Shown here one piece after another: positions 3,825 through 58,160 of a DNA stretch of 64,000 bases; positions within the stretch are counted from its first letter, which is position 1; the number at the start of each line of letters is the position of its first letter. The notes beneath the pieces are model-generated. The model worked only from the letters and a program-made list of their open reading frames with translations, did no database searches and had not been told where the DNA came from. Position numbers and translations under genes: made by a program. The DNA is from Planctomycetota bacterium (GTDB lineage Bacteria > Planctomycetota > Uabimicrobiia > Uabimicrobiales > Uabimicrobiaceae): NCBI GenBank assembly GCA_029260735.1, contig JAJDCR010000015.1, positions 65,825 through 129,824 on the forward strand, written 5' to 3'.

Positions 3825-3956
3825 ACTTGGCATCCAAAAAGAGAAAAATAGTGTTGTTTTGTAAGAAAGTTCCCATGAAATTTTTTTTCACTATCTTTGC
3901 AAAACTTTTTCACTGGAAACCCCTTACTATTATTTAAACCTGTATGGAAAAATCTC

Positions 3957-18677: not shown

Positions 18678-19301
18678 CTAAGCTCTCTTAAATCTTAGTA
18701 AAACAACTCCACCTAAAGCCAAGAAAATGAAACTTGATGGCTCAGGAACAGTTTCGGTTAAAACTCCCGCCTCTCCATTAACGAAAAAATGAGTGCTTGA
18801 AAAACCATTCTGGCTATATCCCCCACCTCCACCACGAAAAAAATAGTTAGGGCTTCCTATATCACTGCTACCAGTGGGAGCAGAACCACTTCCTGATGCT
18901 CCCAAAAAATTACTTCCAAAAATGACACCATAAAAGCCAGCGTCTAAAACAACAGAAAGATTTCCGGTTACCACAGCAGAAGTACTCGGAAAATTCATAA
19001 CAACATGTCCTAGTACATCAGGAGTGTTTAAAACATCACTATCAGGAAAATCCGTTAGACTAGTTAAACGAACAATCGCTCCAAAAAAAGTTCCTGTTCC
19101 TAAAAAGTGTCCACCAATCTCAGTCGTGGTTGCTGTTGAACCAACTTGAAATCTGCCTCCTAAGAATTGATTGGCGACAGTAACTCCGGCCCCGATTCCC
19201 GTAGGCCCCAAGTTTGAGCTTTCATAGATAGTAGCGGTATGACCAGAAACTAATAGACCAAGGCAAAGCAAAATAGAAGCAAGTATTGTTTTGTTTTTCA
19301 T
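18678..19301 (-). CDS. Secreted Gly/Thr-rich protein with a C-terminal PEP-CTERM sorting signal
   Basis: N-terminal signal peptide (MKNKTILASILLCLGLLVSG). The C-terminus VPEPSSFIFLALGGVVLLRFKRA shows the VPEP motif, a TM helix and a basic tail. Confidence 0.75.
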   Translation of the reverse strand: MKNKTILASILLCLGLLVSGHTATIYESSNLGPTGIGAGVTVANQFLGGRFQVGSTATTTEIGGHFLGTGTFFGAIVRLTSLTDFPDSDVLNTPDVLGHVVMNFPSTSAVVTGNLSVVLDAGFYGVIFGSNFLGASGSGSAPTGSSDIGSPNYFFRGGGGGYSQNGFSSTHFFVNGEAGVLTETVPEPSSFIFLALGGVVLLRFKRA

Positions 19302-19463
19302 CTTTTGTCCTTTTGATTTTTATTAATTTACACTGCAACAAATGTTAACTGTACAATATTTTCCAAAAAAATCTACTAGGATTTTTTGATTTATAAAAAA
19401 TTATATAAAATCTTTCTTTTTCATAGCTTAGAGCGTAATTTATTTAACTTGTCCATTCTTTAC

Positions 19464-19490
19464 CTTACTCTACTTTTTGAGTTTGAAACA
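19464..19490. repeat. 27-bp exact direct repeat (copy A) flanking the Rpn-gene segment
   Basis: CTTACTCTACTTTTTGAGTTTGAAACA is identical to 20550-20576. Copy B encodes the last codons (FQTQKVE*) of the STAS gene on the minus strand. Confidence 0.8.
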
Positions 19491-19604
19491 CTGAAGAGAG
19501 TCCGAATAAGTCAAGAACTGTCCTAACACCTGATAAAATAACCTCAAACAAAAAAGAAAGTGGCAAAGTACCACTTATATAGAGTAAAATCTTAGGAGAA
19601 TGTT

Positions 19605-20302
19605 TTGAATAAAGATAAAGACAAAAAGAAAAAAGGCAAAGGGAAACCAAGGAACAAGCATGACCTTGGCTACAAACAATTGCTCTCCTTCATTGAAATG
19701 TTTCGCCAATTAATCCAAGGCTATACCGATGAAGATTGGAAGGAAAAACTCGACTACTCAAGAGCACAGCGCGTCGATAAAGAGTATGTTTTACCGGACT
19801 TTAAGGAAAAAGAATCGGATATCGTTTACAAAGTCCCTTTAATAGACAAGGAAAAAAACGAAAAGGAAATTTTTTTGTTTGTCTTGATTGAGCACCAGTC
19901 TACTGTTGATCATTCTATCGCTTTTCGTTTACTTTTCTACTTAACTCATGTTTGGTATGATATGAGCTGTGGAAAACCTTTATGCAGTGGGTCGTTCGCT
20001 TTTTTCAGGATCGAAATGATCCTTCCAACAAAGACATAATTGACGATTTTGATTTCGAAAACAAAAATAAAGAGGAGATTACTACCATGATCGAAACTTT
20101 ACCTGGTCGACTGGTTGAACAAGGTTTCGTTAAAGGCTTGGCAAAAGGAGAGGTTTTAGGCTTGCTTAAAGGTATGAATATTATTTATCCTGGAATTATT
20201 GAAAAATATAAAGAGAGAGTTGATAATGCTCAAGCTGAAGCAGAATTTCAATCTCTCGAAAAAGAAATTCTCCAAGATATAGAGTCTCGCAAGAAAGACT
20301 AA
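19605..20302 (+). pseudogene. Degraded Rpn/YhgA-family (PD-(D/E)XK, Transposase_31-like) recombination-promoting nuclease gene
   Basis: HDLGYKQLL N-motif and LIEHQSTVD (compare Rpn LLEHQSTPD). The gene is split by a frameshift into ORFs 19605-20039 and 19982-20302. The C-terminal GxxxG repeats (VEQGFVKGLAKGEVLGLLKG) are Rpn-like. The total length (~232 aa) is shorter than intact Rpn proteins (~300 aa). Confidence 0.65.
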
Positions 20303-20328
20303 AAAATCTCTCCTTCCCACAAAAAAAA

Positions 20329-20371
20329 GGCAGCTAAAAAGAAAAATATAAATTTTTCTCTTTAGCTGCCC
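20329..20371 (+). terminator. Hairpin downstream of the Rpn pseudogene
   Basis: 10-bp stem GGCAGCTAAA/TTTAGCTGCC with a 23-nt loop. There is no clear T-tract, so this is a weak terminator call. Confidence 0.35.
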
Positions 20372-20549
20372 TTTCCCCTCTTCTCTTTCCTGCCCTCTCC
20401 TAGTATACTAAACCTATCTCTACTCGTTCTTTGAAATAAAAAACCTCACTTAAGCAAATTTCATCCCCAGCCAAAAACCTTGCTTAGGAAAATCCCAAAA
20501 CCTCTCTCTAAAACTGCGCTAGGCCTTAGTTATCAATACAACGCCTGGA

Positions 20550-20576
20550 CTTACTCTACTTTTTGAGTTTGAAACA
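20550..20576. repeat. 27-bp exact direct repeat (copy B)
   Basis: Identical to 19464-19490 and overlaps the 3' end and stop of the STAS gene. Confidence 0.8.
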
Positions 20577-22035
20577 TGCTCTCAACCGGATCGGCTTGCT
20601 TAGGCATCTTCATCCAGTAAAAACTCATCGCGGTAATAAAGGCACCAATCGCAAGAACAAAGCCAAAAGGAGAAACTCCCCCTCCAAAAATCTGAGCGAT
20701 TTTTTGTAGTGCCACCACTATGGCTGGTAGGCTTTCACGGAGATTAATGTCTAGAGTATCAAAGAGAACAGAGAGTATGGGGGAAGCTATTCCAAAATAA
20801 AGAGCTATCTTGGCAATGGTTTGCTTGGTTACACTGAAGGGAGTGCGAATGATATCGACAACTTTCCCTTGGTAGTAAATTTCAATACAGGCTCGGGGAA
20901 AATTGCCTTCTGCAATGGGAGTTATATGAAAATTAGCCTCACTCATTTCGGGGCTAATATCAACAGTTTTGCTTTGGGGGATAACAAGGCATCCAGGTAA
21001 GTAGGGAACCACTTCGATCTGAGGACGTTCACTGGTCACCGTAATTTTTTGTTCCCCTTCGACTTGAGCAACAATTTTATGAGTAATTTCTTGGAGCTTG
21101 CCTTCGGAAAAAACGGCCATTAAAGGAAAACTGCAAAAGGGATTCATTTGTCGAAAATAACGAACAGTAGAATTACGCCGAATTTCTGAGAAAGTTTTTT
21201 TAGCGCGAAGGGGGCTTTTTTCTTTTTTAACGGACTCTTTTACTGGGGCAATAAGTTTAGCGACTTCTTGGTCGGTCAAAGTTTCTTCATACTCAGTAAC
21301 AGTTCTTTGACGCCTAGGAGCAGAAGATGATCTGCGTTCGGCCTTAGTGGAACTCGAAGAGCCTCCTTTAGCAGAAGATGTACTCTTTTTTATGACAACA
21401 AGATTTTTAGGAGGACGAGCAGGTGCGACGGGAACACTGCTTTGAGAACTGCTAGGGGAATTAGTGGGGGCACTTTTTACTGGTTTAGGTTTTACCGGAA
21501 TAGCAGGAATACCAGGAGCTGATTCATCAGAAAGATTTTTTCTTCCTACAGGAGGGAGACCTTCTATCGAAGGTACACTCTCGGCTTGGAGAGCAGCACT
21601 TTCTTCTGAGGGAAGGAGTAAATCAGGAGAAATACTCTTCTTTCCCTCTTTTGCTTGGGCCTTTTTTAAGGATTGTTCCATCGCTTGGAGAGCTAGCTCT
21701 TCAGTTTCGTATATGTGTAAAACGGGCATGAGTCCGAGCATTTCAAAAAGTACTTTCACTTTGCCTGGAACATTAACCAGCTTAACGGCCCCTCCTGCTT
21801 CTTCAAATTGATCCACATACTTGATCAATAGCCCCATTCCTGTACTATTGAGATAGTTCACTTCAGAAAAAATAAGAATAAGATATTTGATATTTTGTCG
21901 ATGAAAGTCATCTAGCTGAATTTCAAACTGCCGCACAGTGATTCCATCAACAGAGCCTTTAATTTTTAAAACACAAACAGGTTCATCGTTGGATAGCTTG
22001 CACATGCTCGAACTAAATAGAAGATTATCTGACAT
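20551..22035 (-). CDS. STAS (anti-sigma-factor antagonist-like) domain protein with Pro/Ser-rich linker and C-terminal membrane-associated domain
   Basis: N-terminal SpoIIAA-like STAS fold (KIKGSVDGITVRQFEIQL...NYLNSTGMGLL...VKLVNVPGKVKVLFEMLGL) with a candidate phospho-Ser/Thr in the NSTG loop. A long P/S/A/K-rich linker is followed by hydrophobic C-terminal helices. Confidence 0.65.
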   Translation of the reverse strand: MSDNLLFSSSMCKLSNDEPVCVLKIKGSVDGITVRQFEIQLDDFHRQNIKYLILIFSEVNYLNSTGMGLLIKYVDQFEEAGGAVKLVNVPGKVKVLFEMLGLMPVLHIYETEELALQAMEQSLKKAQAKEGKKSISPDLLLPSEESAALQAESVPSIEGLPPVGRKNLSDESAPGIPAIPVKPKPVKSAPTNSPSSSQSSVPVAPARPPKNLVVIKKSTSSAKGGSSSSTKAERRSSSAPRRQRTVTEYEETLTDQEVAKLIAPVKESVKKEKSPLRAKKTFSEIRRNSTVRYFRQMNPFCSFPLMAVFSEGKLQEITHKIVAQVEGEQKITVTSERPQIEVVPYLPGCLVIPQSKTVDISPEMSEANFHITPIAEGNFPRACIEIYYQGKVVDIIRTPFSVTKQTIAKIALYFGIASPILSVLFDTLDINLRESLPAIVVALQKIAQIFGGGVSPFGFVLAIGAFITAMSFYWMKMPKQADPVESMFQTQKVE

Positions 22036-23874: not shown

Positions 23875-26800
23875 ATGAACTTTTGTATTGCTTATCCAGT
23901 TGATGGGGGCACCCCCGAAGATTCCCACATTGTTTTGGTTCGTACTTATCGAGGGCAAGAACATATTTGCCAAGGAGGAGGGCGCTCTGGTCTTCGAAGT
24001 AATTCAGGAGCTGCTTTTATTTGGGAACGAGTCGCAAGCTCTTTCCAGCAGAAGTATGCTTTGGAGTTTTCCCCTCTTCCGCTCTCAAATCCCCACATAA
24101 AACCAGAAAATTTATCCGACTGCGGTGACTCTGATGCTCTGGCTTGTGCTTTAGCTGTAGGTCTAAGGTCTAGTCAAAAAGAAGAGTATCTTGATCCTAC
24201 AAAATATCCTTTGATTCTGGCTTCTTGTTCTTTTCAATTAACAAACAAGAAACAAGGCTTACGTGGACTAAAACTAGAAGCAGTTACTGATGAAAAGAAT
24301 TTAAAAAGCTCTCTGAGATCTCTCCAAAACAAATGGGCCTGTGCCTGTAACAACAAAGCCAAGGCTCTCATTCTACATAACGACGACGCTTATTTACTAG
24401 CAGACTTTATCAATGTCCCAGTATTTCCGGTAAGTAGTAGTTCTCTAACTCAAATACTCTCTAAAGACTCCCCATTACCAGTTCTTCTTTCTTGCCAAAA
24501 AAAAGATATGTCTCTAGTCGCTAATAATCTAGATATAGACGGTTCTATTTTCCAAGATTCATCTTCCTCTCATTCGGAGAAATTTCCTCCAGAACCTTTC
24601 CGCTTCTTATCTCCTTTTACAAAAAAAGAAGAGAGTATTTTTTTTGGTCGTGAACAAGAAATACATAAGTTAGCAAATACTTTACTTGACCGAGATAGTG
24701 CTTCTGTTTTTTTACTTTTCGGTCAGTCTGGAGTGGGTAAATCCTCTTTTCTTTTTGCAGGACTCATACCTTATTTAGAAAGACAGTTGTGCCAAGTTGT
24801 TTATTTCTCAGGACAAAATTCTTTCGAAAGCTCTCTGGAAAACTTACCTCCGAAAAAAGAAGGTTTCTGGATTAAATTTAGTTCTCTTTGGAATAATAGT
24901 TCTAGTCCAGAGGAGATAAAAAACTCATGGCTAGAAAAAGAGGAGGAGTTAGAGCAACCTCTGATTGTTATTATGGATCAATGGGAAGAAGTTTTAGCAG
25001 AGTCATCACAATTCAGTAAAGACTGGGGAATGTTTTGTCAGACTCTGGAGTGTATCTTTGGTGACTATGACACAAAACCTCAAGGACGATTGATTCTTTC
25101 TTTTCGTAAAGAGTGGCTTTCTCTCGTCGAAAACTCTCTATCTAATCTCCGCCCTTTTCCAGGCAATTTTTTCTTACGTCCTTTGAGTAGAGAAGGTATT
25201 ATTCAAATAATTGAGGGATTAGATAAGAATGAAGAGCTGAGAAATCACTACTCTTTTTTTTGGGAGCCGGGCCTCTCAGAAATTATGGCAGATGGTTTTC
25301 TGACAGACCATGAATCTCCCTTGGCTCCATTTTTACAAATCCTCCTTAGCTTAATGTGGGAAGAATCTGATACCCAAAAACGAAAAGTTTACTTTACCTT
25401 AGACCTCTATCACAAAGTGATCCGCCAAGGCATTTTTGCTAAATATGTCAAGCAACATATAGAAAATCTTGCTGTAGATCGAGAAACGGCGATCAATTCT
25501 GGACTCATTTTAGACATTTTAGACTTTCATATCTTTCTAAACCGAGCTCAAGAACGTTCCCTTGAAGAATTAGAGAAACAATACTCTCATCTTCCTCCTG
25601 GGCTACTGAAAGACATTTTAACCACATTAAAAAATAGTTATTTACTCTGTGATTCTTCACCGGAGAGAGGGAAACGTGCTCAGTTTATTCGACTTGCTCA
25701 TGACAGTTTAGCTCCCATTATTCATGAAGAGGTAAAAAAATCCCACCGAATCGGACAACGATCTCGTCGTATACTAGAGAGCCAAATAGTCAGTTGGCGA
25801 GATAATCACCATGATCTCTTAAGTAATTTTGACTTAGAGACAATTGAACAAGGTCGTCCAGCAATGCGAGCATTAAGCCAAGAGGAAGAAGAGCTTGTTA
25901 GTTCTAGCCATAAGATGGGAGGTATATCTTCTCTTATTGCAACAGTTCAAAGTAATAGTGATAATCAAGCTAAGCTCAAAGCATTGTCGGCAATGCGTCT
26001 TTATCCAGAGAGACACGAGGTCATTATCCCCGCCATGATAAAGCTTATGGAAAAAGCACATGAAGACGACCAAGTAAAAAGAATAGCTGTTGAAATCATT
26101 GGAGAAATGGCAAAGGAAGCAGGCGTCACCATTCCTATACTTGTTGACTTGGTTAAAGCAGGTGAAAACTATCTTTTTGAAGCGATGAATGCTCTCATTA
26201 GAATGGAAGAAATCTCTCGCCCAGCTCTTCAGGTACTTTGCCAAAGTTCACGGGAAAGTATTCGCTTAAACGTTGTTCGAGGTTTTTCTTTAGTCAAAAT
26301 AGAAGGATGCCTACCTTTCTTACTTAAAATGATTGAGAAAGAATCTAGTGGTAAAGTAAAAAAAGAAGCCTACAAAGCTCTAGGGGTAACTTTAGGCTTT
26401 CAATTTCATGAAGAAAAAAAAATCACTAGCAATAACGTTGAGTACTGTTTAGGCCACTATGTTCACGAACAAACAGGAATGGAATTCGTTTTTTTTCCCA
26501 GCGGATCTTTTATGATGGGAAGTGATGAGCGCGATAACTTAGCAAGTGAAAACGAAAGGCCTCGTCATTTTGTTTCCCTGTCTCCTTTCTTCATTTCTCG
26601 TTATCTTGTCACCCAGAAAATATGGGAAGATGTTATGGGGAATAACCCCTCTTACTTCAAAAACGAGCATAAACCAGTAGAAACTGTTACTTGGCATGAT
26701 TGCCAAGAGTTTTGCCAAAAAACAAAGCTACAGCTACCGAGCGAAGAACAGTGGGAGTATGCTTGTCGAGGAGGAACAACAAGTCGTTTTTATTGGGGAC

Positions 26801-27180
26801 CAAATTGGGATCGAAGTAAAATTAACAGTGCTTCCTATTGGGCCAAAGAAGATCTTGTTACCCATACCCAGTGGAAAGAATTTGGTTTTCTGGAAAAATG
26901 GAAAGAACTCAAAGGAGAAACTTCTCTTGTGGGAAATTTCTCTGTCAATCCTTTTGGTTTGTATGATATGCTAGGAAATGTCTGGGAGTGGTGCGAAGAC
27001 AACTGGTCACCGTCTTATGAAAAAGGAAAAAATGCTCCTACCGGAAATGGCCTAGAGCGAGCTTGTCGAGGAGGCTGTGCTTGGTATGCCGCACAAGATT
27101 GTCGGTGCGCTAGCCGAGTAGGAGACTCGGCTGATAACTGCGATTGTTATTTGGGTTTTCGAGTAGTGAAAAATATTTAA
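23875..27180 (+). CDS. Multidomain protein: unknown N-domain - P-loop (STAND-like) NTPase - HEAT repeats - FGE-sulfatase (SUMF1/EgtB/PvdO-family) domain
   Basis: Walker A LLFGQSGVGKSSFLF preceded by FFGREQEIHKL. HEAT/PBS-lyase-like repeats (LSAMRLYPERHEVIIPAMIKLMEKAHEDDQVKRIAVEIIGEMA). C-terminal FGE-domain motifs (RPRHFVSLSPFFISRYLVTQ, ETVTWHDCQEFCQ, LPSEEQWEYACRGG, LYDMLGNVWEWCEDNW, GFRVV). Confidence 0.75.
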   Translation: MNFCIAYPVDGGTPEDSHIVLVRTYRGQEHICQGGGRSGLRSNSGAAFIWERVASSFQQKYALEFSPLPLSNPHIKPENLSDCGDSDALACALAVGLRSSQKEEYLDPTKYPLILASCSFQLTNKKQGLRGLKLEAVTDEKNLKSSLRSLQNKWACACNNKAKALILHNDDAYLLADFINVPVFPVSSSSLTQILSKDSPLPVLLSCQKKDMSLVANNLDIDGSIFQDSSSSHSEKFPPEPFRFLSPFTKKEESIFFGREQEIHKLANTLLDRDSASVFLLFGQSGVGKSSFLFAGLIPYLERQLCQVVYFSGQNSFESSLENLPPKKEGFWIKFSSLWNNSSSPEEIKNSWLEKEEELEQPLIVIMDQWEEVLAESSQFSKDWGMFCQTLECIFGDYDTKPQGRLILSFRKEWLSLVENSLSNLRPFPGNFFLRPLSREGIIQIIEGLDKNEELRNHYSFFWEPGLSEIMADGFLTDHESPLAPFLQILLSLMWEESDTQKRKVYFTLDLYHKVIRQGIFAKYVKQHIENLAVDRETAINSGLILDILDFHIFLNRAQERSLEELEKQYSHLPPGLLKDILTTLKNSYLLCDSSPERGKRAQFIRLAHDSLAPIIHEEVKKSHRIGQRSRRILESQIVSWRDNHHDLLSNFDLETIEQGRPAMRALSQEEEELVSSSHKMGGISSLIATVQSNSDNQAKLKALSAMRLYPERHEVIIPAMIKLMEKAHEDDQVKRIAVEIIGEMAKEAGVTIPILVDLVKAGENYLFEAMNALIRMEEISRPALQVLCQSSRESIRLNVVRGFSLVKIEGCLPFLLKMIEKESSGKVKKEAYKALGVTLGFQFHEEKKITSNNVEYCLGHYVHEQTGMEFVFFPSGSFMMGSDERDNLASENERPRHFVSLSPFFISRYLVTQKIWEDVMGNNPSYFKNEHKPVETVTWHDCQEFCQKTKLQLPSEEQWEYACRGGTTSRFYWGPNWDRSKINSASYWAKEDLVTHTQWKEFGFLEKWKELKGETSLVGNFSVNPFGLYDMLGNVWEWCEDNWSPSYEKGKNAPTGNGLERACRGGCAWYAAQDCRCASRVGDSADNCDCYLGFRVVKNI

Positions 27181-35365: not shown

Positions 35366-36487
35366 TTGAAAAAAACGCTTGTCTATCTATTCTTCCTTTC
35401 TCTTTTATCCTCTCTCCTCTATGCCGACCTAGCTTCGCAATACGAGTCGGCTTATCGTTTAGCCCGCGATAAGGAGGCTCTGAATTTTTCAGACGCAACA
35501 GCGCAGGCTTGGAGTGAAGGTTTTTTGCTGAAAAAAGCGGTTTTTTCGGGAATCGGTTTGCTTGCACAGTATGAGGAAGCAAGTCAATTTGCTTTGGCTG
35601 AGGAAGGCTTGCGTTTGTCCTTGGAAGAAGCGGATCAGTGGGCGAAAAAACTGTTGATTTTGCGCGGGCAAATCGGGGCGGATGCTAGTTTAAGAGATGA
35701 GCTAAATCGTTTTCTAGAAGAAGTGTTTTTAGAGGAAGAAGAGGCTCTGGAGTGGTCTTTGGAGTTTTTTCAATCCGATGCTCCTCTTTATTCTCGCCAA
35801 GGGCTTCTAGAGCGATATACCGATGTCTACTCTTTTGCCCGTGAGAATATCTTTTTTTCTTTTACTCACGAAGAGGCCTTGAAATTAGCGAAAGACTTTA
35901 TCGGGCAACGATTCTACTTCCAACCAGGAATTCCTCTTTTAAGCCAGTATGTTCTCGCCTACAATTTTGCTTTTTCTTCTGAAGGACTGCGCATGACAGA
36001 TGAAGAGGCCCGTGCATGGGCAGAAGAATTTGTCTTAAGCCGAGGTGCTCTAAACCCTAGCCAGAACTTGGAAAATCAATTTCAAGATGCAGAGAATTTT
36101 GCCTTTGCCACAGGAGGCCTAGAAAAAAATAGAAACGAAGCTCGGGATTGGGCTGTTGTCTATATTCAGAAAAAAGGATTGCCTGATATTTCGATTAACC
36201 TCTTCCGACAATACCGCGAAGCCTACTTCTTTGCTTACAACGGACAGGTTCTTTCTCTCATTCGTAAAGTTAGAGATGCTCCGCCGGGCGTTTTTTTGAG
36301 CGATGAAGCAATGAAGTGGTCCCAAAAATTTATTGCCCAACGTTCCGAAATTAAGGGAGAAGAGGATCTTTTAGAGAAATACTTTCAGGCTCTTAATTTT
36401 GCTTACTCTAGCGAAGGCTTGAAGCTTGAAATAGAAGCGGCGCGGGCTTGGGCTATCGGTTTTTTAGAGAAGGAGGAAGTACGATGA
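35366..36487 (+). CDS. Secreted tandem-repeat protein (about six 40-45-aa repeats, motif QYxxAYxFAxxxEGLxxxxEEAxxWA)
   Basis: TTG start with a perfect TAAGGAG RBS 9 nt upstream. Signal peptide (LKKTLVYLFFLSLLSSLLYA). The repeat is visible by eye. The stop overlaps the next gene's ATG (ATGA). Confidence 0.6.
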   Translation: MKKTLVYLFFLSLLSSLLYADLASQYESAYRLARDKEALNFSDATAQAWSEGFLLKKAVFSGIGLLAQYEEASQFALAEEGLRLSLEEADQWAKKLLILRGQIGADASLRDELNRFLEEVFLEEEEALEWSLEFFQSDAPLYSRQGLLERYTDVYSFARENIFFSFTHEEALKLAKDFIGQRFYFQPGIPLLSQYVLAYNFAFSSEGLRMTDEEARAWAEEFVLSRGALNPSQNLENQFQDAENFAFATGGLEKNRNEARDWAVVYIQKKGLPDISINLFRQYREAYFFAYNGQVLSLIRKVRDAPPGVFLSDEAMKWSQKFIAQRSEIKGEEDLLEKYFQALNFAYSSEGLKLEIEAARAWAIGFLEKEEVR

Positions 36488-43768: not shown

Positions 43769-46700
43769 TTATCTTCTTTTACGAAAACGCGATGTTACTA
43801 CTCCTGTCGCTTCGTCTTTGGACATATTTAGCATAACAAGAGCGGCCTCAATATCCTTTTTGTCAAAAGATTGTAAAGCATAAGAAGAGAAAATTTTCTC
43901 TTCTTTTTCTTCCTCTGTTAAACCCCATAGTTTTTTCCGATTTGCCATCCCCAAAAGAATAGGTAGTGCTTTAGTATCACCAATTTCACCAAGGGTTCGA
44001 CAACAAGCCCTTTTTGCACTTAAACTGCTAGTTGTTTCCAGAGTTTGAATGATACTTTCTGTTGCTTCTGCGCATTTTATCTTGCCCGCCATCATAACCA
44101 TTCTTCGCTGGATATTTTCAGGGATTTTTCTCTTTAAAGTTCGAATACAAATAGGATATTGCTGAGCTGGTTTCCACCCTTCTATTATAGACATAATATT
44201 GTTTTGGATATCAAGGTTCGGGCTAGAGAGGAGTATTTCATAAAACTTTTCTTGCTTTTCTGTCAGATCTTCTAGTACATCCAGAAGTCTATTAATAACT
44301 GCAGCATCTTGCTTTGGATGTATCAATCCATCCAGTTTTTCATCGACATTTCCTTGCCAACTCCTAAGTAGTTTTGCCAGGGTTTTTCTTTCTTCTTGAT
44401 TTGTATTTTTCTGAATCTCATCTAGAAGAATAGAAGAGGATCTCTCACCTAAAGTTTCTAAAATATCATGAGAAAAAGCTTTTTGGGCTTTATCCGAAGA
44501 GAAAAGATCTTGAGCAATTTGATTAAACTCTACTTCTTCTATGAGCTCATCTAAGGTTTCGTTAATGCCCACACCTAGATCACTTCGATCTCTTTGTTTA
44601 ATTAAACCTCGTAGAAGATCATGTGCTTTCTCGAATTCTTTTTCTCTATAGAGGTTTGTTAGAGAGTATTTGGCTATATCCAACAGCTTTTGGTGAACGG
44701 TTAGGTCTGGTTCAAGAGATAGAGCTCTTTGTAATTCAATGTTAAGAGAAACCAGTAAGAGGTTTTTTACATCATGAGGAAGTCTTTGTTTAAGCTCTGA
44801 AAGTAACTCACAAACTTGGAAGCGAACTCCTGCGATCTTGGAACGTAAATTGCTTGATATTTTTGTGACCAAAGTTTGAAATTCAGTTTGATCTTGCTTC
44901 TGCAGAGTGATCATAAGTTCTTCCATTCCTTCAACCATATCAGGATTAAACAGTTCCTCTTCGTCCATTCGCATAACCAAGTTGAGTTTTTCAGCTAAAT
45001 CCAATTCCACCCATGATTTTTCATCTCCTCCAGCTAATTCTTCTATTTCTAATTCTGGTTCCATTAGCTCTTGGATTTGCATCTCTTTGTATTCTTGGTT
45101 ATTGATGATAATATTATTGGTTTTGTGACGTTGGATAAAATCAGGCCAATAGTTTTCATCTTTTTCTGCATTAGCTGGTTGAGCTAATTGATGAGAAAAA
45201 TCGAGTAACTCTTGTAAAGAAACTTCTTTACGTAATGTACAACTGTGAATATTTTGAGTATTAAAAATACGCTGTATCACAAAAATTTGATTTCCAAAGA
45301 TATGTGGGTTCGCCATATAATTCTCGACAAGAAAGTCATTGTTAGCAATGGCAAAGCTTACTTTTTCTCGCTTTTGGAAAAAAGAATCCAGCGCCTTGGT
45401 TAAAAGCTCCACAGAAAAATTGAGAAGTTTGCTTTGAGAGGGATAGAGTTGAATGTTCTCAACAGAAGCGCAGAGATAACGAATTATGTCTCGCACTAGC
45501 CGAATACTTTCTTCTCCTAAAGTATCGTCCTCAAAAGACATCTCATCAGAAGCCTGTTCTAAGTCTCCCGAAGCTTGCTTGTTAGAAACATACACTTTTT
45601 GTAAAATATCAACAGATTTAATTTCTGCTTCATCTAAGAACTCAGTCCAGTAGTCAGGATTAAGAACAATTTTTTGTCCAGGCTCACCTAAAGCCCTCAT
45701 AATTTTTTCTAGCTCATAGCTCTCAATGTTAGCATCTAAAGTCATACTGGAAATATAGTGTCCTCGTAGTAGCTGATAAAACTCTCTCACAATGGGTGTA
45801 TCTTTTTCTAACTCTGCGTTATTCAAAAGGAGATACTTGTCTTCTATCTTAGTTATAAACCCCGTTAAGTTTTTCCAAGTTTTCTCCATACTTTTGTGAA
45901 GAGCCTTCACAGAGCTAGTGATTAAACTACTTCCTTCTGGGTATCTTTGAACTTGTTGTACTGATAAGGTAAAACTGTGCATCCACGACTTTAGATCCGA
46001 AATATCATTTTCGCTAAGCTCTACAGATTCAACAAATACTCTTTTCATACGACGGTTCAAATTCCCATTAAACATGTCCAGGTCTTCATCAGGCTCAAAA
46101 AGCTTTCTGCGTTCTTTTTCCCGCTTAGTAACCTGTGGATCTAAAGGAGAATTACCATAGCGAGATGATCGGTTGAGATGATGAGTTAAACCATGGCCTT
46201 CCCGACCGTCTCCTACCTTGTAGCGATTCATGAGTTGACTAACTTTTTCATGTACTCGACTTCGCATACTTTCATCAGCAATCTCATAGTAAATAAGATT
46301 CTGAAAGCTACTTTGTTTAAATCGAAAAACATCTTCCTCCGTTTCTTCGACTAAACCTAGTTGCTTTGCTTCTTCTATGAATTGACGTACTTGATCACCG
46401 GAGTATTCACTCGTTTCTTCTAGATAGTTAAAAGAAAAAGGATCTCCGATAACAGCAGCTTGCTGAATAAGAAGAGAAGATTCGCTTTGAAACTCTTTCA
46501 CTAGTTCTAAAATTAATTCTTCTAAACTGGCGGGAAGATCACCTTCTTCTATATCAAAAAACCATATCTCGCCTTTTTTTATTAGTTTTTCTCGATAGTA
46601 AAGAAGAGTTAAAGCATTTTCAATATAAGAAGCATTTCCTTGAGATAAGTCGTTTAAGATCCGAACTGTTTCAAGTGGATCGTAATCTTCTAAAACAGTA

Positions 46701-49700
46701 CTTAAAAAGCCCCGGATTTCTTCACTCGATAATCCTGGAAGAGACATCTCTTGCCAATTAGCTCTAGACCTAAACCGTTCTTCTAGTTTAAAAAAAGGAG
46801 TTTCGTCCACAATTAAATCGGTATTAATGGTTGCAATAACTTGTATGTTTACTTTCTGAATTCGAAGAAAATAATCGAAGACATAAAGAGTAACTTGATC
46901 TACATATTGAATATCATCAAGTAAAATAGCTAACTTTTCATCTTTTGCGATGTACTCTAAAAGAAAGCATATTCCTTCGTAAGTTGTTTTACGTATTTTT
47001 TCTAAGGGGACATTTGGAGATATTTTACTCGTTTTTACAGGGCGTAAAAAACGCAACAACGGTTTTAAGAAATGAATTTCTTCATCCCACATTTGTTTGA
47101 CAGCTTCTTCAATTTCCCCTGGTTTATCCATGAAGTATTGGTCTATAATTCTAGCAACACAACTATAAGGCTCCTCTATTTCAGCTTCTCGGCAACTATG
47201 GTAAAAGGCAAAACCAGCAAGTGCTTGGATTTCCCGCAAAAGCTTTGTCTTTCCGTACCCACGAGGAGAAGAAAACAATAAGATTTTTGCCGTTTCGGAG
47301 ACCAAAACACTTTTGGCTTGCTCTATTTCTTTTTCACATCCGAGCAATACAGGAGAAGAAAAATCAACAGCGGTAAGTACTAAGTTAGTACTAGAAGTAG
47401 GTGTTACAATAGCATTGCCACCTTTTTCCTTCACTTGAATTAAAGATTCTTGTCCCTTATCAATTAAATCATTGACCTTGTCATTTTCGCCAGAAAAAGC
47501 CAAAACAACACCGCTTAAACTAAGCTTTATTTGAGTTTCTGCAGCAGATGGATCTCCCTGAAATTTTTCTACATACTTGCGGGTTGTTTCTGCTAAGAGA
47601 AAAGATTTTCGAGAATTGGAGTAAGGCATCACTAAAGTAAAAGTTCCTGTACTTATCTCTCTATAAATATGCGCTCGGCCTTCAAGGGCAGAAATTAAAG
47701 CATCGAGAATATTTTCAAGAATTTCTTGGGTTTTAAGAGCCCCATAGAATTGAACATAGCTCTCAAAGTTATCTAAGTCGAGAATTATGAAAGATCCTGG
47801 AGTGTCTGTATCGAAGAGCTCTTGTAATTTTTCCTCTAGGTGCTCTCTTCCTTCTAGATGAAATACCTCTTTTTTTTCTTCTGATTCCATCATTTGAGAA
47901 TCTTCAGAAGACGAACTTTCTAAAGGATACTCTTTGTCTTGAAAACCTTTGTAGGAAACGTTTTTGACAGAATCCTCCTCAGAATTCTCTTCAGAAGATG
48001 GACTTTCAGAAGATCGACTTTCCAGAGGATACTCTTTGTTTTGAGAACCTTTGTAGGAAACGTTCTCAATAGAATCATCTACAGGAGACTCTCGAGAAGA
48101 TGGACTTTCAGAGGGATGCTCCATCTTTTGAAGATCTTCGAGAAACGAGTTTTCTTCCGGAACTCGTTTTTGGGTATCTTTCTCTTTGGAGTCTTTAAGT
48201 AAGCGCTCTGTTTGAATGAAAGCAGAGTGCCTCATAGTGTCAAAGAAAGACTTTGTTTCTCCAGATTCACAATTCGCAGAATCTGGAAAAGGATCCTCGC
48301 CATGTATTCCCGTTTGATTATTTGATTTAGTGATACTTCCTGTTTGTTCTGTATCCTTTTCCTTAGGTAAAGGAACTCTTTTTATCTTTTTAATGGAAGA
48401 AGATTTTAATTCATCTAATTTTTTTTGGGCATTGAGTTGAACTAGTTTGGGATCTATTTTCTCCGTATTACTTGGTCCCGATGTTATTTCTCTGGGCTCG
48501 CTAGGAGGACTCACTTTGAACATTTTTCTTGAGCGAGAGGCAGCCAAGTTAGCAGGATCTATTTTCTCTGTTGAGCTAGGGCCAAAGGTAATATTTTCTT
48601 TTGAAGAAGGAGCTTTTGATCTAATACCTGGATTAGAAGGTGGGTCTTGAGCTTTCAATCTTTTTGTATTGGAAAATGATGCGGTGTCATCCGTTCGCTG
48701 AGAAGAAGATTTAAATCTAATTCCTGTGAATGTTTTACTTGGGTCTAAGTTACTTGTATTACTAGGACCGGAAGTTATCCCTTGTCGCTCAGTGCTTGAT
48801 GGATTTTTACTAGGGGGAGAAATCATTATCGTTGGATCTGGCTTTTCTCCCACATCTAATTTTTCCAAATCTGTTTTACTAGGGGGAGAAATCATCATCG
48901 TTGGATCTAGTTTTTCTCCCGCATCTAATTTTTTCAAATCTGCTTTACTAGGAGGAGAAATCATCATCGTTGGATCTAGTTTTTCTCCCGCATCTAGTTT
49001 TTTCAAATCTGCTTTACTAGGGGGAGAAATCATCATCGTTGGATCTGGCTTTTTCCCCACATCCAATTTTTCCAAATCTGTTTTACTAGGGGGAGGAAAC
49101 ATGACTGTGGGATCAATATTTTCCTCAAGATCAAGCTTTCCATCTGTCTTAAATATCTTTACAGCCGCTAATTCTTCTGGAGAAAATTTTTCCGTCGAGC
49201 CACCTTCTTGATTAGCTATTTTATTTTCTAGAGCAGACCGAGGTAAAATTGCTTTGGCTTTTTTATCTCCAAACATTTTCTTAGTAGTGTTCTCTGGAAT
49301 AGAGGGGGAAGCGGGACTTACCACATCTGCCTGTGGACCACTTGATTGTAAGAATTTTTCCAGATCTTGCTTCATTTCTCGAGCGGTTTGGTAGCGCATT
49401 CTCTTATCGCGATGCAGTGATTTTAGGCAAATCTTTTCAAGAAAAGAAGAGATTTCAGGCTTTTTGCTACGCGGAGGAATGATATCTCCGTTACTTAGTC
49501 TTGCCAGAATAACATCAATAGTATCTCCCTGAAAAAGAGTCTCTCCTACAATCATTTCGTATAAAACAGCTCCCAAGGAATAAATATCTGCGCGAGAATC
49601 TATTTTAGCATCACCATGAGCTTGTTCATAGGACATATAAGAGATAGTTCCCATGATAAGACCTGTTTGAGAAATAGCAGGGACATCGCTATTGAGAAAC

Positions 49701-50191
49701 TTCACTAAACCAAAATCTGTTAAGTAAGGCTCACCATCAATCCCTATTAAAATATTGGAAGGTTTTATGTCACGATGAAGAAAACCCATTTGATGAGCAT
49801 AGTGCATAGCATCAAGTACTTTGATCATGATCAGACATGACTCTTCCAAAGTTATACTGAAGTTGTGCAGATGCCAAGAAAGAGAGCCCCCTTCGATAAA
49901 CTTCATTGTAAGAAAATGCAGCCCATCAACTTCGCCCATATCATATAGGGGTACTATGTTAGGATGATCTAACCGCGCAGTGGCGCGAGCTTCTCGAAAA
50001 AAACGAGTGATCGCATCTTGCTCAGAATCGCCTTTAAGAATTTTCAAGGCAACTTCACGCTCCAGAATAGTGTCGTTAGCCTTATAGACTTTTCCCATCC
50101 CCCCTTCGCCGATCATATTGAGAAGAACATACCTTCCCATACGATGCTCCTTCTTTTCTGGAGTGTTCGCGTTTTCATGGGATTCGTTCAT
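43769..50191 (-). CDS. Giant (2140-aa) multidomain signalling protein: Ser/Thr kinase - 21-aa tandem repeats - degenerate GGDEF-like domain - P-loop (STAND/AAA_16-like) ATPase - helical/HEAT repeats
   Basis: Kinase motifs (GEGGMGKVYKA, ALKIL, HRDIKPSNILI, DFGLVK). DPTMMISPPSKADLKKLDAGEKL repeated ~5 times. GGDEF-fold segment (FIILDLDNFESYVQFYGALKTQEIL...REISTGTFTLVMP) with GGDEF replaced by STGTF. Walker A SPRGYGKTKLL. C-terminal PBS-lyase HEAT-like repeats (AKRACCRTLGEIGDTKALPILL). Confidence 0.85.
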   Translation of the reverse strand: MNESHENANTPEKKEHRMGRYVLLNMIGEGGMGKVYKANDTILEREVALKILKGDSEQDAITRFFREARATARLDHPNIVPLYDMGEVDGLHFLTMKFIEGGSLSWHLHNFSITLEESCLIMIKVLDAMHYAHQMGFLHRDIKPSNILIGIDGEPYLTDFGLVKFLNSDVPAISQTGLIMGTISYMSYEQAHGDAKIDSRADIYSLGAVLYEMIVGETLFQGDTIDVILARLSNGDIIPPRSKKPEISSFLEKICLKSLHRDKRMRYQTAREMKQDLEKFLQSSGPQADVVSPASPSIPENTTKKMFGDKKAKAILPRSALENKIANQEGGSTEKFSPEELAAVKIFKTDGKLDLEENIDPTVMFPPPSKTDLEKLDVGKKPDPTMMISPPSKADLKKLDAGEKLDPTMMISPPSKADLKKLDAGEKLDPTMMISPPSKTDLEKLDVGEKPDPTIMISPPSKNPSSTERQGITSGPSNTSNLDPSKTFTGIRFKSSSQRTDDTASFSNTKRLKAQDPPSNPGIRSKAPSSKENITFGPSSTEKIDPANLAASRSRKMFKVSPPSEPREITSGPSNTEKIDPKLVQLNAQKKLDELKSSSIKKIKRVPLPKEKDTEQTGSITKSNNQTGIHGEDPFPDSANCESGETKSFFDTMRHSAFIQTERLLKDSKEKDTQKRVPEENSFLEDLQKMEHPSESPSSRESPVDDSIENVSYKGSQNKEYPLESRSSESPSSEENSEEDSVKNVSYKGFQDKEYPLESSSSEDSQMMESEEKKEVFHLEGREHLEEKLQELFDTDTPGSFIILDLDNFESYVQFYGALKTQEILENILDALISALEGRAHIYREISTGTFTLVMPYSNSRKSFLLAETTRKYVEKFQGDPSAAETQIKLSLSGVVLAFSGENDKVNDLIDKGQESLIQVKEKGGNAIVTPTSSTNLVLTAVDFSSPVLLGCEKEIEQAKSVLVSETAKILLFSSPRGYGKTKLLREIQALAGFAFYHSCREAEIEEPYSCVARIIDQYFMDKPGEIEEAVKQMWDEEIHFLKPLLRFLRPVKTSKISPNVPLEKIRKTTYEGICFLLEYIAKDEKLAILLDDIQYVDQVTLYVFDYFLRIQKVNIQVIATINTDLIVDETPFFKLEERFRSRANWQEMSLPGLSSEEIRGFLSTVLEDYDPLETVRILNDLSQGNASYIENALTLLYYREKLIKKGEIWFFDIEEGDLPASLEELILELVKEFQSESSLLIQQAAVIGDPFSFNYLEETSEYSGDQVRQFIEEAKQLGLVEETEEDVFRFKQSSFQNLIYYEIADESMRSRVHEKVSQLMNRYKVGDGREGHGLTHHLNRSSRYGNSPLDPQVTKREKERRKLFEPDEDLDMFNGNLNRRMKRVFVESVELSENDISDLKSWMHSFTLSVQQVQRYPEGSSLITSSVKALHKSMEKTWKNLTGFITKIEDKYLLLNNAELEKDTPIVREFYQLLRGHYISSMTLDANIESYELEKIMRALGEPGQKIVLNPDYWTEFLDEAEIKSVDILQKVYVSNKQASGDLEQASDEMSFEDDTLGEESIRLVRDIIRYLCASVENIQLYPSQSKLLNFSVELLTKALDSFFQKREKVSFAIANNDFLVENYMANPHIFGNQIFVIQRIFNTQNIHSCTLRKEVSLQELLDFSHQLAQPANAEKDENYWPDFIQRHKTNNIIINNQEYKEMQIQELMEPELEIEELAGGDEKSWVELDLAEKLNLVMRMDEEELFNPDMVEGMEELMITLQKQDQTEFQTLVTKISSNLRSKIAGVRFQVCELLSELKQRLPHDVKNLLLVSLNIELQRALSLEPDLTVHQKLLDIAKYSLTNLYREKEFEKAHDLLRGLIKQRDRSDLGVGINETLDELIEEVEFNQIAQDLFSSDKAQKAFSHDILETLGERSSSILLDEIQKNTNQEERKTLAKLLRSWQGNVDEKLDGLIHPKQDAAVINRLLDVLEDLTEKQEKFYEILLSSPNLDIQNNIMSIIEGWKPAQQYPICIRTLKRKIPENIQRRMVMMAGKIKCAEATESIIQTLETTSSLSAKRACCRTLGEIGDTKALPILLGMANRKKLWGLTEEEKEEKIFSSYALQSFDKKDIEAALVMLNMSKDEATGVVTSRFRKRR
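48800..49110. repeat. Intragenic 63-bp tandem repeat (~4.5 copies) encoding the 21-aa protein repeats
   Basis: ...GGGGGAGAAATCATCATCGTTGGATCTAGTTTTTCTCCCGCATCTAATTTTTTCAAATCTGCTTTACTAG... is repeated head-to-tail with few substitutions. Confidence 0.8.
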
Positions 50192-58142: not shown

Positions 58143-58160
58143 AATTTGGGTGAAAAAGTT

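What the first reader, a model, noticed from the sequence alone, without database searches (positions are those of the whole stretch)
19464..20576. Rpn/YhgA-family nuclease pseudogene flanked by exact 27-bp direct repeats that duplicate the 3' end of the STAS gene
The 1059-bp segment between the repeats carries only the frameshifted, internally shortened Rpn-like gene and a hairpin. The direct repeat is a perfect duplication of the last 9 codons plus stop of the neighbouring STAS gene, as would be produced by an insertion with target duplication. Rpn (Transposase_31) proteins promote recombination, but their mobility is not established. A copy with duplication-like flanks would be evidence that they can move, or that they provoke local duplication.
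Basis: seen in the sequence. Interest (0 to 1): 0.6.

Follow-up and report, generated by a model that had tools for sequence, protein, structure and literature searches.

The report
Decayed rpn cassette with 27-bp flanks
A broken copy of an Rpn anti-phage nuclease gene sits behind a membrane-protein gene in a planctomycete and is bracketed by a perfect 27-base duplication of that gene's end, which shows the gene arrived by insertion but does not show that Rpn moves itself.

Summary
An exact 27-bp direct repeat (19464-19490, 20550-20576) brackets 1059 bp, and it is the longest dispersed exact repeat in the 64-kb window. The right copy is the 3' end of the STAS gene: 2 nt of Met, 7 codons, the stop and 1 nt. 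That is not "9 codons plus stop".

The bracketed DNA is a single-gene rpn cassette. One out-of-frame deletion of about 320 bp removed the second half of the PD-(D/E)XK domain. The C-terminal RpnS-like module and a strong hairpin terminator are intact. The cassette has no terminal inverted repeats. No integrase, transposase or tRNA gene was found in the window.

No close relative of the locus could be retrieved, so the empty-site test could not be run.

About 65 other rpn loci were surveyed. Single-gene rpn units sit in several contexts with ragged ends and usually without flanking repeats, as published. Two other lineages have repeats that copy a neighbour gene's 3' end. In the Arsenophonus case, sister plasmids point to non-allelic module exchange rather than target-site duplication.

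The most likely reading is a recombination- or repair-mediated insertion with a 27-bp target duplication. Self-transposition by Rpn is unlikely. Interest is moderate to low.

The parts
19464..19490 (.). Left copy of the exact 27-bp direct repeat. It is non-coding and sits next to the AT-rich upstream region of the PEP-CTERM gene.
20550..20576 (.). Right copy of the 27-bp repeat. It is the functional 3' end of the STAS gene: 1 nt beyond the stop, the stop, 7 codons and 2 nt of Met.
19491..20549 (+). The 1059-bp bracketed segment, a single-gene rpn cassette that was about 1.38 kb before the internal deletion. It has no terminal inverted repeats. GC is 0.363, against 0.41-0.42 in the two flanking genes.
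19605..19963 (+). N-terminal half of the Rpn nuclease (TTG start, Shine-Dalgarno AGGAGA at 19594-19599). It keeps the catalytic-core motifs ESDIVYKV and LIEHQST, but only Pfam PF04754 positions 1-99 of 203.
19959..19964 (+). Junction of the internal out-of-frame deletion (WYD | YELWK). It removes about 106 codons, including the LPPVFPIVLYNG motif. An inferred TAT microhomology lies at the junction. The N-terminal frame then runs into a 25-codon nonsense tail ending at 20039.
19961..20302 (+). C-terminal part of Rpn in the shifted frame. It is open, with no stop codons, through to TAA at 20300-20302.
20087..20302 (+). Candidate RpnS-like intragenic ORF of 71 aa (MIETLP...). The Shine-Dalgarno sequence aagaggag (20070-20077) lies 9 nt upstream, inside the conserved KEEITTM stretch. 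The ORF contains the 4-residue-repeat zone (GFVKGLAKGEVLGL). Promoter-like sites lie at 20011-20040 and 20040-20068.
   Evidence: positional analogy with RpnA M244 and its RBS, from PMC10400941 sections 6, 7 and 12
20326..20373 (-). Stem-loop of 20-23 bp. On the minus strand (dG -33 kcal/mol) it is followed by U8, so it is an intrinsic terminator for the STAS transcript. On the plus strand (dG -23) the U tail is weak. The stem is conserved downstream of the rpn remnant in L003.
20375..20549 (.). 175-bp C/T-rich spacer between the hairpin and the right repeat. It has no ORF, no Rfam match, and no similarity to the region outside the left repeat.
19558..19576 (-). Small minus-strand hairpin followed by a T-run, lying in the rpn leader. 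It is terminator-like.
19491..19524 (.). 34 nt immediately inside the left repeat that resemble an internal stretch of the STAS gene (20834-20867): 26 of 34 with one gap, LIRTLFSV against IIRTPFSV. This is unexplained.
   Evidence: (D5)
20551..22035 (-). Gene for a STAS-domain protein with a C-terminal membrane region. It is intact. Its C-terminal tail is not conserved in the three distant homologues.
18678..19301 (-). Gene for a PEP-CTERM-type secreted protein, co-directional with the STAS gene. It would lie 162 bp downstream of STAS in the inferred empty site.

Best explanation
The feature is a decaying single-gene rpn cassette in the chromosome of a Uabimicrobium-related planctomycete. Rpn genes encode a PD-(D/E)XK nuclease toxin (RpnL) with an intragenic antitoxin (RpnS), a type of anti-phage defence gene.

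The cassette, originally about 1.38 kb, was inserted at the very end of the STAS gene. The insertion duplicated 27 bp of target, so the STAS reading frame stayed intact and an orphan copy of its last codons was left on the far side, next to the PEP-CTERM promoter region.

The most economical mechanism is inferred, not shown. A linear rpn-bearing fragment was captured at a staggered double-strand break, made by two nicks 27 nt apart in an AT-rich stretch. Fill-in of both overhangs and ligation by host repair functions followed. This would be a target duplication made by repair, not by a dedicated transposase.

Later, one out-of-frame deletion of about 320 bp at a 2-3 nt microhomology destroyed the nuclease. 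It left the C-terminal RpnS-like module (RBS, ATG at 20087, 71 codons) and the bidirectional terminator intact. The locus can therefore at most still make an orphan antitoxin-like peptide.

The two 27-bp copies are a substrate for precise excision.
For: Shown directly:
- The repeat is exact, unique and sharply bounded.
- The right copy is the STAS 3' end.
- Between the copies lies only an Rpn-family gene with its own Shine-Dalgarno site and leader, plus a hairpin.
- The hairpin is conserved with the rpn 3' end in the only related locus, L003, so it belongs to the cassette.
- Full-length relatives P0007 and P0008 define a single internal deletion that also causes the frameshift.
- Both halves are otherwise free of stop codons.
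- The cassette GC (0.363) is below that of both flanking genes (0.41-0.42).
- The 175-bp inner right flank has no similarity to the outer left flank. A homologous double crossover from an rpn-bearing allele would therefore not produce the repeat.

Context:
- In other lineages rpn moves as a minimal single-gene unit found in three or more contexts. This matches published comparative genomics (PMC10400941 section 5).
- The RpnS reading rests on positional analogy with E. coli RpnA (iTIS at M244, RBS in the K240/E241 codons, repeat site at H261). P0007 and P0008 also differ by three 4-residue units at exactly that place.
- Other rpn remnants also keep the 3' end: L003 and Arsenophonus L094.
Against: - No empty site could be examined, so the pre-insertion state is inferred.
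- A 27-bp duplication is long for a repair or transposition stagger.
- The enzyme that made the break is unknown, and host end-joining capacity was not assessed.
- The 34 nt just inside the left repeat resemble an internal STAS segment (p about 0.001-0.005 before correction). A clean one-step insertion does not predict this.
- In two other lineages, repeats that copy a neighbour's 3' end are 120-162 bp long and only 81-94% identical. These fit recombination between diverged alleles better than break fill-in.
- Expression of the RpnS-like ORF is untested. It has no Pfam DUF4351 match, and structure prediction was uninformative.
Confidence: 0.45

Rival explanations
1. By-product of homologous plus illegitimate recombination. 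In the homology-facilitated form, an rpn-bearing allele or replicon recombined with an rpn-less one using homology on one side and an illegitimate joint on the other. In the Campbell-type form, a circularised fragment carrying rpn and the 27-mer integrated by a single crossover in the 27-bp identity. Either way a piece of the neighbour gene's end is left duplicated.
For: Arsenophonus L091 has recT-[DR1]-rpn-[DR2]-acyltransferase with DR2 only 81% identical to DR1. Sister plasmids carry recT-rpn without DR2, and with either a different acyltransferase allele or none. In L020/L026, repeats of 130-162 bp at 92-94% identity cover the aminotransferase 3' end plus a promoter, and L026 has a third partial copy. 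27 bp is about the minimal length for efficient homologous or RecA-independent recombination in E. coli (from my own knowledge, not tested). Kingston et al. 2017 report that Rpn stimulates RecA-independent recombination (PMC5350276).
Against: The window repeat is short, 100% identical and sharply bounded, with no decayed homology continuing in register on either side. The model needs a donor that already carried the cassette exactly 1 nt past the STAS stop, plus a further illegitimate joint exactly 27 nt upstream. That takes more steps than a single staggered insertion.
Confidence: 0.2
2. The two 27-mers are attL and attR of a largely deleted integrative element (CIME-like remnant). The element used a tyrosine or serine integrase to insert into the 3' end of the STAS gene and carried rpn as defence cargo.
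For: A direct repeat that overlaps and restores the 3' end of the target gene is the classic signature of integrase-mediated insertion, and att cores of 20-30 bp are common (from my own knowledge). rpn genes are described as hitchhiking on mobile elements (PMC10400941 section 13). The cassette shows deletional decay.
Against: There is no integrase, excisionase or any other element gene in the 1059 bp, and none among the window ORFs of 150 aa or more that were scanned (all but three, two of them antisense overlaps). The window has no tRNA gene. Everything except rpn would have to be lost while both att sites stayed perfect.
Confidence: 0.12
3. Rpn-catalysed self-transposition. The Rpn nuclease encoded by this or a sister copy cut the target with a 27-nt stagger and mobilised its own gene, so the repeat is a true transposon TSD.
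For: The cassette is a single gene bracketed by a perfect duplication. The family has several copies, probably in the same assembly. Kingston et al. raised autonomous action as one possibility for rpnC.
Against: There are no terminal inverted repeats or defined end motifs. In two other rpn groups the shared unit has ragged left ends (45, 75 or 100 nt upstream of the ATG) and most contexts lack any flanking repeat. Where flanking repeats occur, their lengths are 27, about 40, 120, 130-162 and 257 bp, which is not the fixed stagger expected of one enzyme. Zhong et al. 2023 found no TSDs or TIRs, and no autonomous PD-(D/E)XK transposase is known.
Confidence: 0.08
4. The left 27-mer and its neighbouring 34 nt are a decayed, internally deleted remnant of a longer duplicated STAS 3' region from an older segmental duplication or rearrangement. 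rpn simply lies between the two.
For: The segment 19491-19524 resembles STAS 20834-20867 on the same strand and abuts the repeat (26 of 34; p about 0.001-0.005; LIRTLFSV against IIRTPFSV).
Against: Identity is 76% in the 34 nt but 27 of 27 in the repeat, which is hard to reconcile with a common age. The two segments are 257 nt apart in the gene, so an extra deletion is needed. The p-value is post hoc, with about 4-8 implicit tests.
Confidence: 0.07
5. Assembly artefact in a draft or metagenome-derived assembly.
For: The source is a contig-level assembly (a 162-kb contig). 27 is a k-mer size used by some assemblers (from my own knowledge).
Against: De Bruijn assemblers collapse repeats rather than create them. 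The intervening DNA is a coherent gene with a terminator, and both junctions lie in otherwise normal sequence.
Confidence: 0.04

Closest known systems
Rpn (YhgA-like, Pfam PF04754) recombination-promoting nucleases, i.e. RpnL/RpnS toxin with intragenic antitoxin (E. coli RpnA-E, plasmid RpnP2; Kingston 2017 PMC5350276; Zhong 2023 PMC10400941)
   Same: It has the same N-terminal PD-(D/E)XK core motifs (SD...EHQS). Its full-length relatives cover the whole PF04754 profile. The C-terminal tail is variable and built of 4-residue repeats. A conserved internal Met preceded by an in-frame RBS lies just upstream of the repeat zone. The gene has a single-gene, patchy, multi-copy distribution.
   Different: This copy lacks the second half of the nuclease domain and is frameshifted. 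It is bracketed by an exact 27-bp duplication of the neighbour gene's end, whereas the published survey reports no target-site duplications. The host is a planctomycete, and sequence identity to E. coli Rpn is low.
Stand-alone rpnS genes (ypaA/rpnESs, rpnCSs; DUF4351 proteins) and N-terminal/rpnS fusions by deletion (Zhong 2023, section 7)
   Same: Only the C-terminal small-protein module remains potentially expressible. Remnants in L003 and Arsenophonus L094 likewise keep the 3' end.
   Different: Here the module is still embedded in a broken full-length gene. It has no PF14261 match, and expression and antitoxin activity are untested.
Insertion sequences with unusually long target-site duplications (for example the IS1202 group, reported with TSDs up to about 24-29 bp; recalled from memory, not checked here)
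   Same: A direct repeat of about 27 bp brackets a unit of about 1-1.4 kb.
   Different: There is no DDE transposase, no terminal inverted repeats, and no evidence of identical copies with defined ends.
Integrase-mediated elements inserted in the 3' end of protein genes, and their deleted derivatives (CIMEs; for example ICESt1 in fda with 27-bp att repeats; recalled from memory)
   Same: The direct repeat overlaps and restores the 3' end of the target gene, and its length is similar.
   Different: There is no integrase or any other element gene. The bracketed DNA is only 1059 bp.
Homology-facilitated illegitimate recombination and non-allelic module exchange between related replicons (documented here for Arsenophonus phage-plasmids)
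   Same: It leaves rpn flanked by two copies of the upstream gene's 3' end.
   Different: There the copies are about 120 bp long and 81% identical and belong to different alleles. In the window the copies are 27 bp and identical.

Membership tests
Rpn / YhgA-like nuclease (PF04754, TIGR01784) | Significant match to the family profile | tested here: met
   The N-terminal ORF scores 59.1 bits against a cutoff of 21, E 6e-16, but covers only profile positions 1-99 of 203. The NCBIfam TIGR01784 match is weak (23 bits, below cutoff). Relatives P0008 and P0007 cover 1-195 of 203 (103 and 99 bits).
Rpn / YhgA-like nuclease (PF04754, TIGR01784) | PD-(D/E)XK core motifs (acidic residue in SD.., E-x-Q in EHQS) | tested here: met
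   ESDIVYKV and LIEHQST are present. These columns are invariant across 10 family members.
Rpn / YhgA-like nuclease (PF04754, TIGR01784) | Complete nuclease domain (second half, including the LPxVxPIVxYxG motif) in one reading frame | tested here: not met
   About 106 codons are deleted and the frame is shifted. It is therefore a pseudogene of the family, not a functional member.
Rpn / YhgA-like nuclease (PF04754, TIGR01784) | Nuclease activity, toxicity and phage defence | not testable with these tools
   These need expression and plaque assays.
RpnS intragenic or stand-alone antitoxin (DUF4351, PF14261) | Internal RBS and start codon shortly upstream of a variable 4-residue-repeat helix, with an ORF running to the rpn stop | tested here: met
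   aagaggag lies at 20070-20077, the ATG at 20087, and 71 codons are intact. P0007 and P0008 differ by three 4-residue units there. The layout matches RpnA M244/H261.
RpnS intragenic or stand-alone antitoxin (DUF4351, PF14261) | Profile or structural match to DUF4351 or the RpnAS structure | tested here: not met
   There is no PF14261 hit at E <= 1. A PDB profile search gave nothing relevant. The AF2 model has pLDDT 69 and Foldseek gave no hit with E < 1. The model quality makes the structural part inconclusive.
Insertion sequence / transposon | Target-site duplication directly abutting the element | tested here: inconclusive
   A perfect 27-bp direct repeat is present.
Insertion sequence / transposon | Terminal inverted repeats or conserved end motifs | tested here: not met
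   The first 80 nt against the reverse complement of the last 80 nt scores 12, against a shuffle mean of 12.5.
Insertion sequence / transposon | Encodes a recognised transposase (DDE, HUH, serine or tyrosine) | tested here: not met
   The only gene is the PD-(D/E)XK Rpn.
Insertion sequence / transposon | Several copies with identical, defined ends in different contexts | tested here: inconclusive
   This could not be tested for this lineage. In two other rpn lineages the right end lies at the stop codon plus 0-20 nt, but the left ends are ragged.
Integrase-mediated integrative element (att repeats at a gene 3' end) | Direct repeats overlapping and restoring the 3' end of the target gene | tested here: met
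Integrase-mediated integrative element (att repeats at a gene 3' end) | Integrase or recombinase gene within or next to the element | tested here: not met
   There is none in the 1059 bp. Pfam scans of all but three window ORFs of 150 aa or more found none (two of the three unscanned ORFs are antisense overlaps; the 2140-aa ORF 43769..50191 was not scanned).

The most novel reading that the evidence does not exclude
rpn cassettes are inserted by a recurrent, possibly Rpn-stimulated, mechanism that targets the 3' ends or terminator regions of genes and duplicates a variable stretch of target. The stretch is 27 bp in this window, about 40 bp in L080, and 120-162 bp in L091 and L020/L026. This would be a nick- or break-driven 'duplicative capture' route of defence-gene mobility, distinct from transposition and from site-specific integration. 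The window would then be its cleanest footprint.
Probability: 0.12. Interest if true: 0.7.

Novelty: new member of a known kind. Interest (0 to 1): 0.35.

Why it matters
How rpn genes spread is an open question. They are widespread nuclease toxin/antitoxin defence genes. Published work finds them patchy and horizontally mobile, but without transposon hallmarks. A single-gene rpn cassette bracketed by a perfect 27-bp duplication of target is a rare, clean insertion footprint. It could guide a search for the mechanism, such as staggered-break capture or short-homology recombination.

The locus also illustrates how these genes decay. The toxin half is lost first and the RpnS-like half is retained. 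This is the expected fate of a toxin-antitoxin gene, and it recurs in two other remnants seen here.

It remains one anecdote without an empty-site control. The wider survey shows that flanking repeats at rpn loci are a minority and arise in more than one way.

Tried and rejected
Searches for an empty site or for the paralogue loci all failed.
- Genome-contig scans with the STAS protein and with P0008 found nothing.
- The first metagenome scan, with the close-family alignment, found nothing.
- The look-up of encoding contigs has no record for P0001, P0007 or P0008.
- The clusters of STAS, PEP-CTERM and the neighbouring kinase are singletons.
- STAS homologues P0002-P0004 are too distant (53% identity over 42% of the protein), and their downstream genes are unrelated to the PEP-CTERM gene.
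- A relative with a 97% identical MutS exists only as a 4.3-kb Logan contig.

Ideas tested and rejected:
- The 27-mer as a common repeat. It has only 2 copies in the window at up to 3 mismatches. The rest of the genome could not be searched.
- Terminal inverted repeats: none.
- Known RNA families in 19200-20700: nothing near the gathering scores.
- Homology between the inner right spacer and the outer left flank: none.

RpnS membership tests led nowhere. Pfam and a PDB profile search gave nothing. The single-sequence AF2 model was of low confidence and Foldseek returned only noise.

Survey false leads:
- The flanking 'repeats' in L007-L012 are CRISPR repeats.
- L032 and L034 are tandem-array-type duplications that start inside rpn itself.
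- The one high-scoring 'control' (L041) is itself an rpn array.
- A parental recT'-acyltransferase arrangement for Arsenophonus was not found.
- L091 has no matches in the phage or E. coli collections at high identity.
Full report
OBSERVATION

The 27-mer CTTACTCTACTTTTTGAGTTTGAAACA occurs at 19464-19490 and 20550-20576, enclosing 1059 bp. With up to three mismatches on both strands these are the only two copies in the window, and 100 shuffles gave none. Outside one tandem-repeat protein gene it is the longest exact direct repeat in the 64 kb. The next dispersed repeat is 16 bp. Both edges are sharp.

The right copy is the 3' end of a 494-aa STAS-domain gene (20551..22035, minus strand; Pfam STAS E 5e-16). 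It contains 2 nt of a Met codon, the seven codons FQTQKVE, the stop and one further base. The left copy is non-coding and abuts the 162-bp AT-rich region upstream of a co-directional PEP-CTERM-type gene (18678..19301; Pfam 18.5 bits, just under cutoff).

WHAT LIES BETWEEN THE REPEATS

The ORF 19605-20039 (TTG start, AGGAGA Shine-Dalgarno site) matches Pfam Transposase_31/YhgA-like PF04754, but only profile positions 1-99 of 203 (59 bits). A database search found two full-length relatives from NCBI contigs of similar size, probably the same assembly: P0008 (340 aa) and P0007 (349 aa). They are 80-86% identical overall and up to 94% in the N-terminal half. Both cover the whole Pfam domain.

Alignment shows that the window copy lacks about 106 codons, from WYD|IYKN... 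to ...NEPNY|ELWK. The sequence continues in another frame from 19961 to the stop at 20302. The "frameshift" and the "internal shortening" are therefore one event. It is a deletion of about 320 bp, not a multiple of three, at an inferred TAT microhomology around 19959-19964. The catalytic-core motifs (ESDIVYKV, LIEHQST) survive, but the second half of the PD-(D/E)XK domain, including the conserved LPPVFPIVLYNG, is gone. Neither half has acquired stop codons, so the lesion is probably recent.

THE C-TERMINAL PART FITS THE RpnS ARCHITECTURE

Zhong et al. 2023 showed that rpn genes encode a toxic full-length nuclease (RpnL) and a small antitoxin (RpnS). RpnS is translated from an internal start just upstream of a helix built of variable 4-residue repeats. 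In RpnA the RBS lies in the K240/E241 codons, the start is M244 and the repeat site is H261. RpnS can also exist as a separate gene.

Here the stretch NKNKEEITTMIETL is invariant in all four close sequences. It supplies aagaggag at 20070-20077 and an ATG at 20087, followed by an intact 71-codon ORF. That ORF contains the repeat zone GFVKGLAKGEVLGL, and P0007 and P0008 differ there by exactly three 4-residue units. Promoter-like sites lie just upstream inside the gene.

The only related locus, L003 (ENA), also retains just this C-terminal part plus the hairpin. An Arsenophonus plasmid retains an 87-bp rpn 3' remnant. The remnant may therefore still make an orphan RpnS-like peptide. This is inference. 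It has no DUF4351 Pfam hit, no PDB sequence hit, and a low-confidence model with no structural match.

OTHER ANATOMY

A 20-23-bp stem-loop at 20326-20373 is very stable. On the minus strand (dG -33 kcal/mol, z -7) it is followed by U8, so it now terminates the STAS transcript. On the plus strand (dG -23) the U tail is weak. Its stem is conserved after the rpn remnant of L003, so it belongs to the cassette.

A second small minus-strand terminator-like hairpin lies in the rpn leader at 19558-19576. The 175-bp spacer 20375-20549 has no ORF, no Rfam match and no similarity to the region outside the left repeat. The segment has no terminal inverted repeats.

The window is ordinary chromosome, with MutS, GltX, many Ser/Thr kinases and FGE-sulfatase fusions. 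Pfam scans of all but three ORFs of 150 aa or more found no integrase or transposase, and no tRNA gene was found. The best named MutS hit is Candidatus Uabimicrobium sp. at 63% identity, which places the organism in the Planctomycetota.

THE EMPTY-SITE TEST COULD NOT BE DONE

The source genome and close relatives are absent from every searchable collection. The only STAS homologues are distant and have different neighbours.

SURVEY OF OTHER rpn LOCI

I fetched 80 metagenomic and 10 viral rpn loci. For each I compared 800 bp upstream with 800 bp downstream of the gene. The inverted orientation and pseudo-genes placed in the flanks served as controls.

Most loci have no flanking direct repeat. 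Two groups of near-identical rpn units, the L019 group and the L080 group, occupy three or more different contexts. This confirms that rpn moves as a minimal single gene. The right end lies at the stop codon plus 0-20 nt. The left ends are ragged, at 45, 75 or 100 nt upstream of the ATG, and most contexts lack repeats. This matches Zhong et al., who report no TIRs or TSDs, variable ends and no evidence for autonomous transposition.

The repeat-positive loci are heterogeneous:
- In L007-L012 the 'repeats' are CRISPR repeats, because rpn sits in or next to an array.
- L032 has a tandem-array-type duplication that starts inside rpn.
- L080 has a short repeat of about 40 bp.
- L013 has a 53-bp repeat that was not dissected.
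- Two cases resemble the window in duplicating the neighbour gene's 3' end. L020/L026 have 130-162 bp at 92-94% identity, covering the last ~97 nt of a class-V aminotransferase gene plus a promoter, with a third partial copy in L026 and signs of concerted evolution. L091 has about 120 bp at 81% identity, covering the last ~98 nt of recT plus a hairpin.

L091 turned out to be an Arsenophonus nasoniae phage-plasmid with many sequenced sisters. Plasmids paPv8 and paPv3 carry recT-rpn without the second repeat copy, and with a different acyltransferase allele or none. Plasmid pArsFIN3 has RelB and an rpn 3' remnant in the slot. The downstream copy in L091 is therefore a fragment of a different recT allele. 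It most simply arrived with the downstream acyltransferase module through non-allelic exchange between related replicons. It is not a target-site duplication of rpn.

Excluding the rpn array L041, non-rpn controls gave 0 of 32 hits. This compares with roughly 5-6 hits among about 50 rpn contexts. That suggests a weak association of rpn with local duplications. Zhong et al. also mention "different types of duplications".

INTERPRETATION FOR THE WINDOW

The repeat is a genuine duplication created when DNA was joined here, and the cassette is foreign to the STAS-PEP-CTERM interval. Unlike the other cases, the window repeat is short, perfect and sharply bounded. The inner right flank shows no homology with the outer left flank.

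The recombination models need a donor that already had the cassette exactly one base after the STAS stop, plus another illegitimate joint 27 nt upstream. A single insertion into a break staggered by 27 nt, followed by fill-in, needs fewer steps. I therefore favour that reading (about 0.45), with the cutting and joining enzymes unknown.

The rivals are as follows:
- Homology-facilitated or Campbell-type recombination: 0.2.
- att remnants of a deleted integrative element: 0.12. The signature fits, but no integrase or other element gene is present.
- Rpn-catalysed transposition: 0.08. There are no TIRs, the ends are ragged elsewhere, and repeat lengths vary.
- A remnant of an older STAS 3' duplication: 0.07.
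- Assembly artefact: 0.04.

One observation remains unexplained. The 34 nt just inside the left repeat resemble an internal STAS segment 257 nt upstream of the gene's end (26 of 34; p about 0.001-0.005 before correcting for 4-8 implicit tests). Their 76% identity is hard to reconcile with the 27 of 27 identity of the adjacent repeat.

VERDICT

The flanks show that the cassette was inserted with duplication of 27 bp of target. They do not show that Rpn mobilises itself, and comparable flanks elsewhere arise from ordinary recombination between replicons.

The object is a decayed member of a known family with an unusual, clean insertion footprint. It may also retain an orphan RpnS module. Novelty: new member of a known kind. 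Interest: about 0.35.

Noticed in passing
window 19491-19524 vs 20834-20867: The 34 nt immediately inside the left repeat resemble an internal stretch of the STAS gene on the same strand (26 of 34 with one gap; LIRTLFSV against IIRTPFSV; p about 0.001-0.005 uncorrected). No model explains this cleanly.
   Followed up: partly
L007-L012 (e.g. L007 2791-2889 and 4645-4900; rpn 2977-3942): In Caldicellulosiruptor-like metagenome contigs, an rpn gene sits between CRISPR repeats (GTTTGTAGCCTCCCCTTTGGGGATTGAAAC). A Cas3-like helicase gene lies upstream and a TnpB-like gene downstream. The rpn gene is embedded in, or splits, a CRISPR array.
   Followed up: partly
L026 2593-2754, 3970-4131, 4420-4509: Three copies of a segment comprising the 3' end of a class-V aminotransferase gene plus a TTGACA-17-TAAAAT promoter. 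rpn lies between copies 1 and 2, and a 288-bp segment of unknown content lies between copies 2 and 3. The copies show concerted evolution between the orthologous contigs L020 and L026.
   Followed up: partly
L094 (Arsenophonus pArsFIN3) 6492-6578; L095, L096: The slot downstream of recT in Arsenophonus phage-plasmids is variably occupied. It holds rpn, rpn plus acyltransferase, or a RelB antitoxin with an 87-bp rpn 3' remnant. recT itself is split by an IS91 in pArsFIN3. This looks like a defence/moron hotspot.
   Followed up: partly
L003 4249-5428: In the only related planctomycete contig, an rpn 3' remnant (C-terminal 150 codons plus hairpin) directly follows a pentapeptide-repeat ORF. The contig has 1.97x coverage, so frameshifts may be sequencing errors.
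   Followed up: partly
window 47903-48112 and 48805-49102: Tandem repeats of 102 bp (2.1 copies) and 69 bp (4.3 copies, 91% identical) lie inside the 2140-aa ORF 43769..50191 on the minus strand.
   Followed up: no
window 23875-27180, 36448-37281, 58146-61688: FGE-sulfatase domains occur repeatedly. They are fused to an nSTAND1 NTPase in one ORF and to a Ser/Thr kinase in another. At least six Ser/Thr kinase genes were seen in 64 kb, two of them with FHA domains. This signalling repertoire is what I would expect of Uabimicrobium-like planctomycetes (my own expectation, not checked here).
   Followed up: no
L041 1-618 and 2387-3004: Three rpn paralogues lie within 4 kb, with a 620-bp direct repeat at 95% identity. 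This is an rpn array of the tandem-duplication type described in the literature.
   Followed up: no
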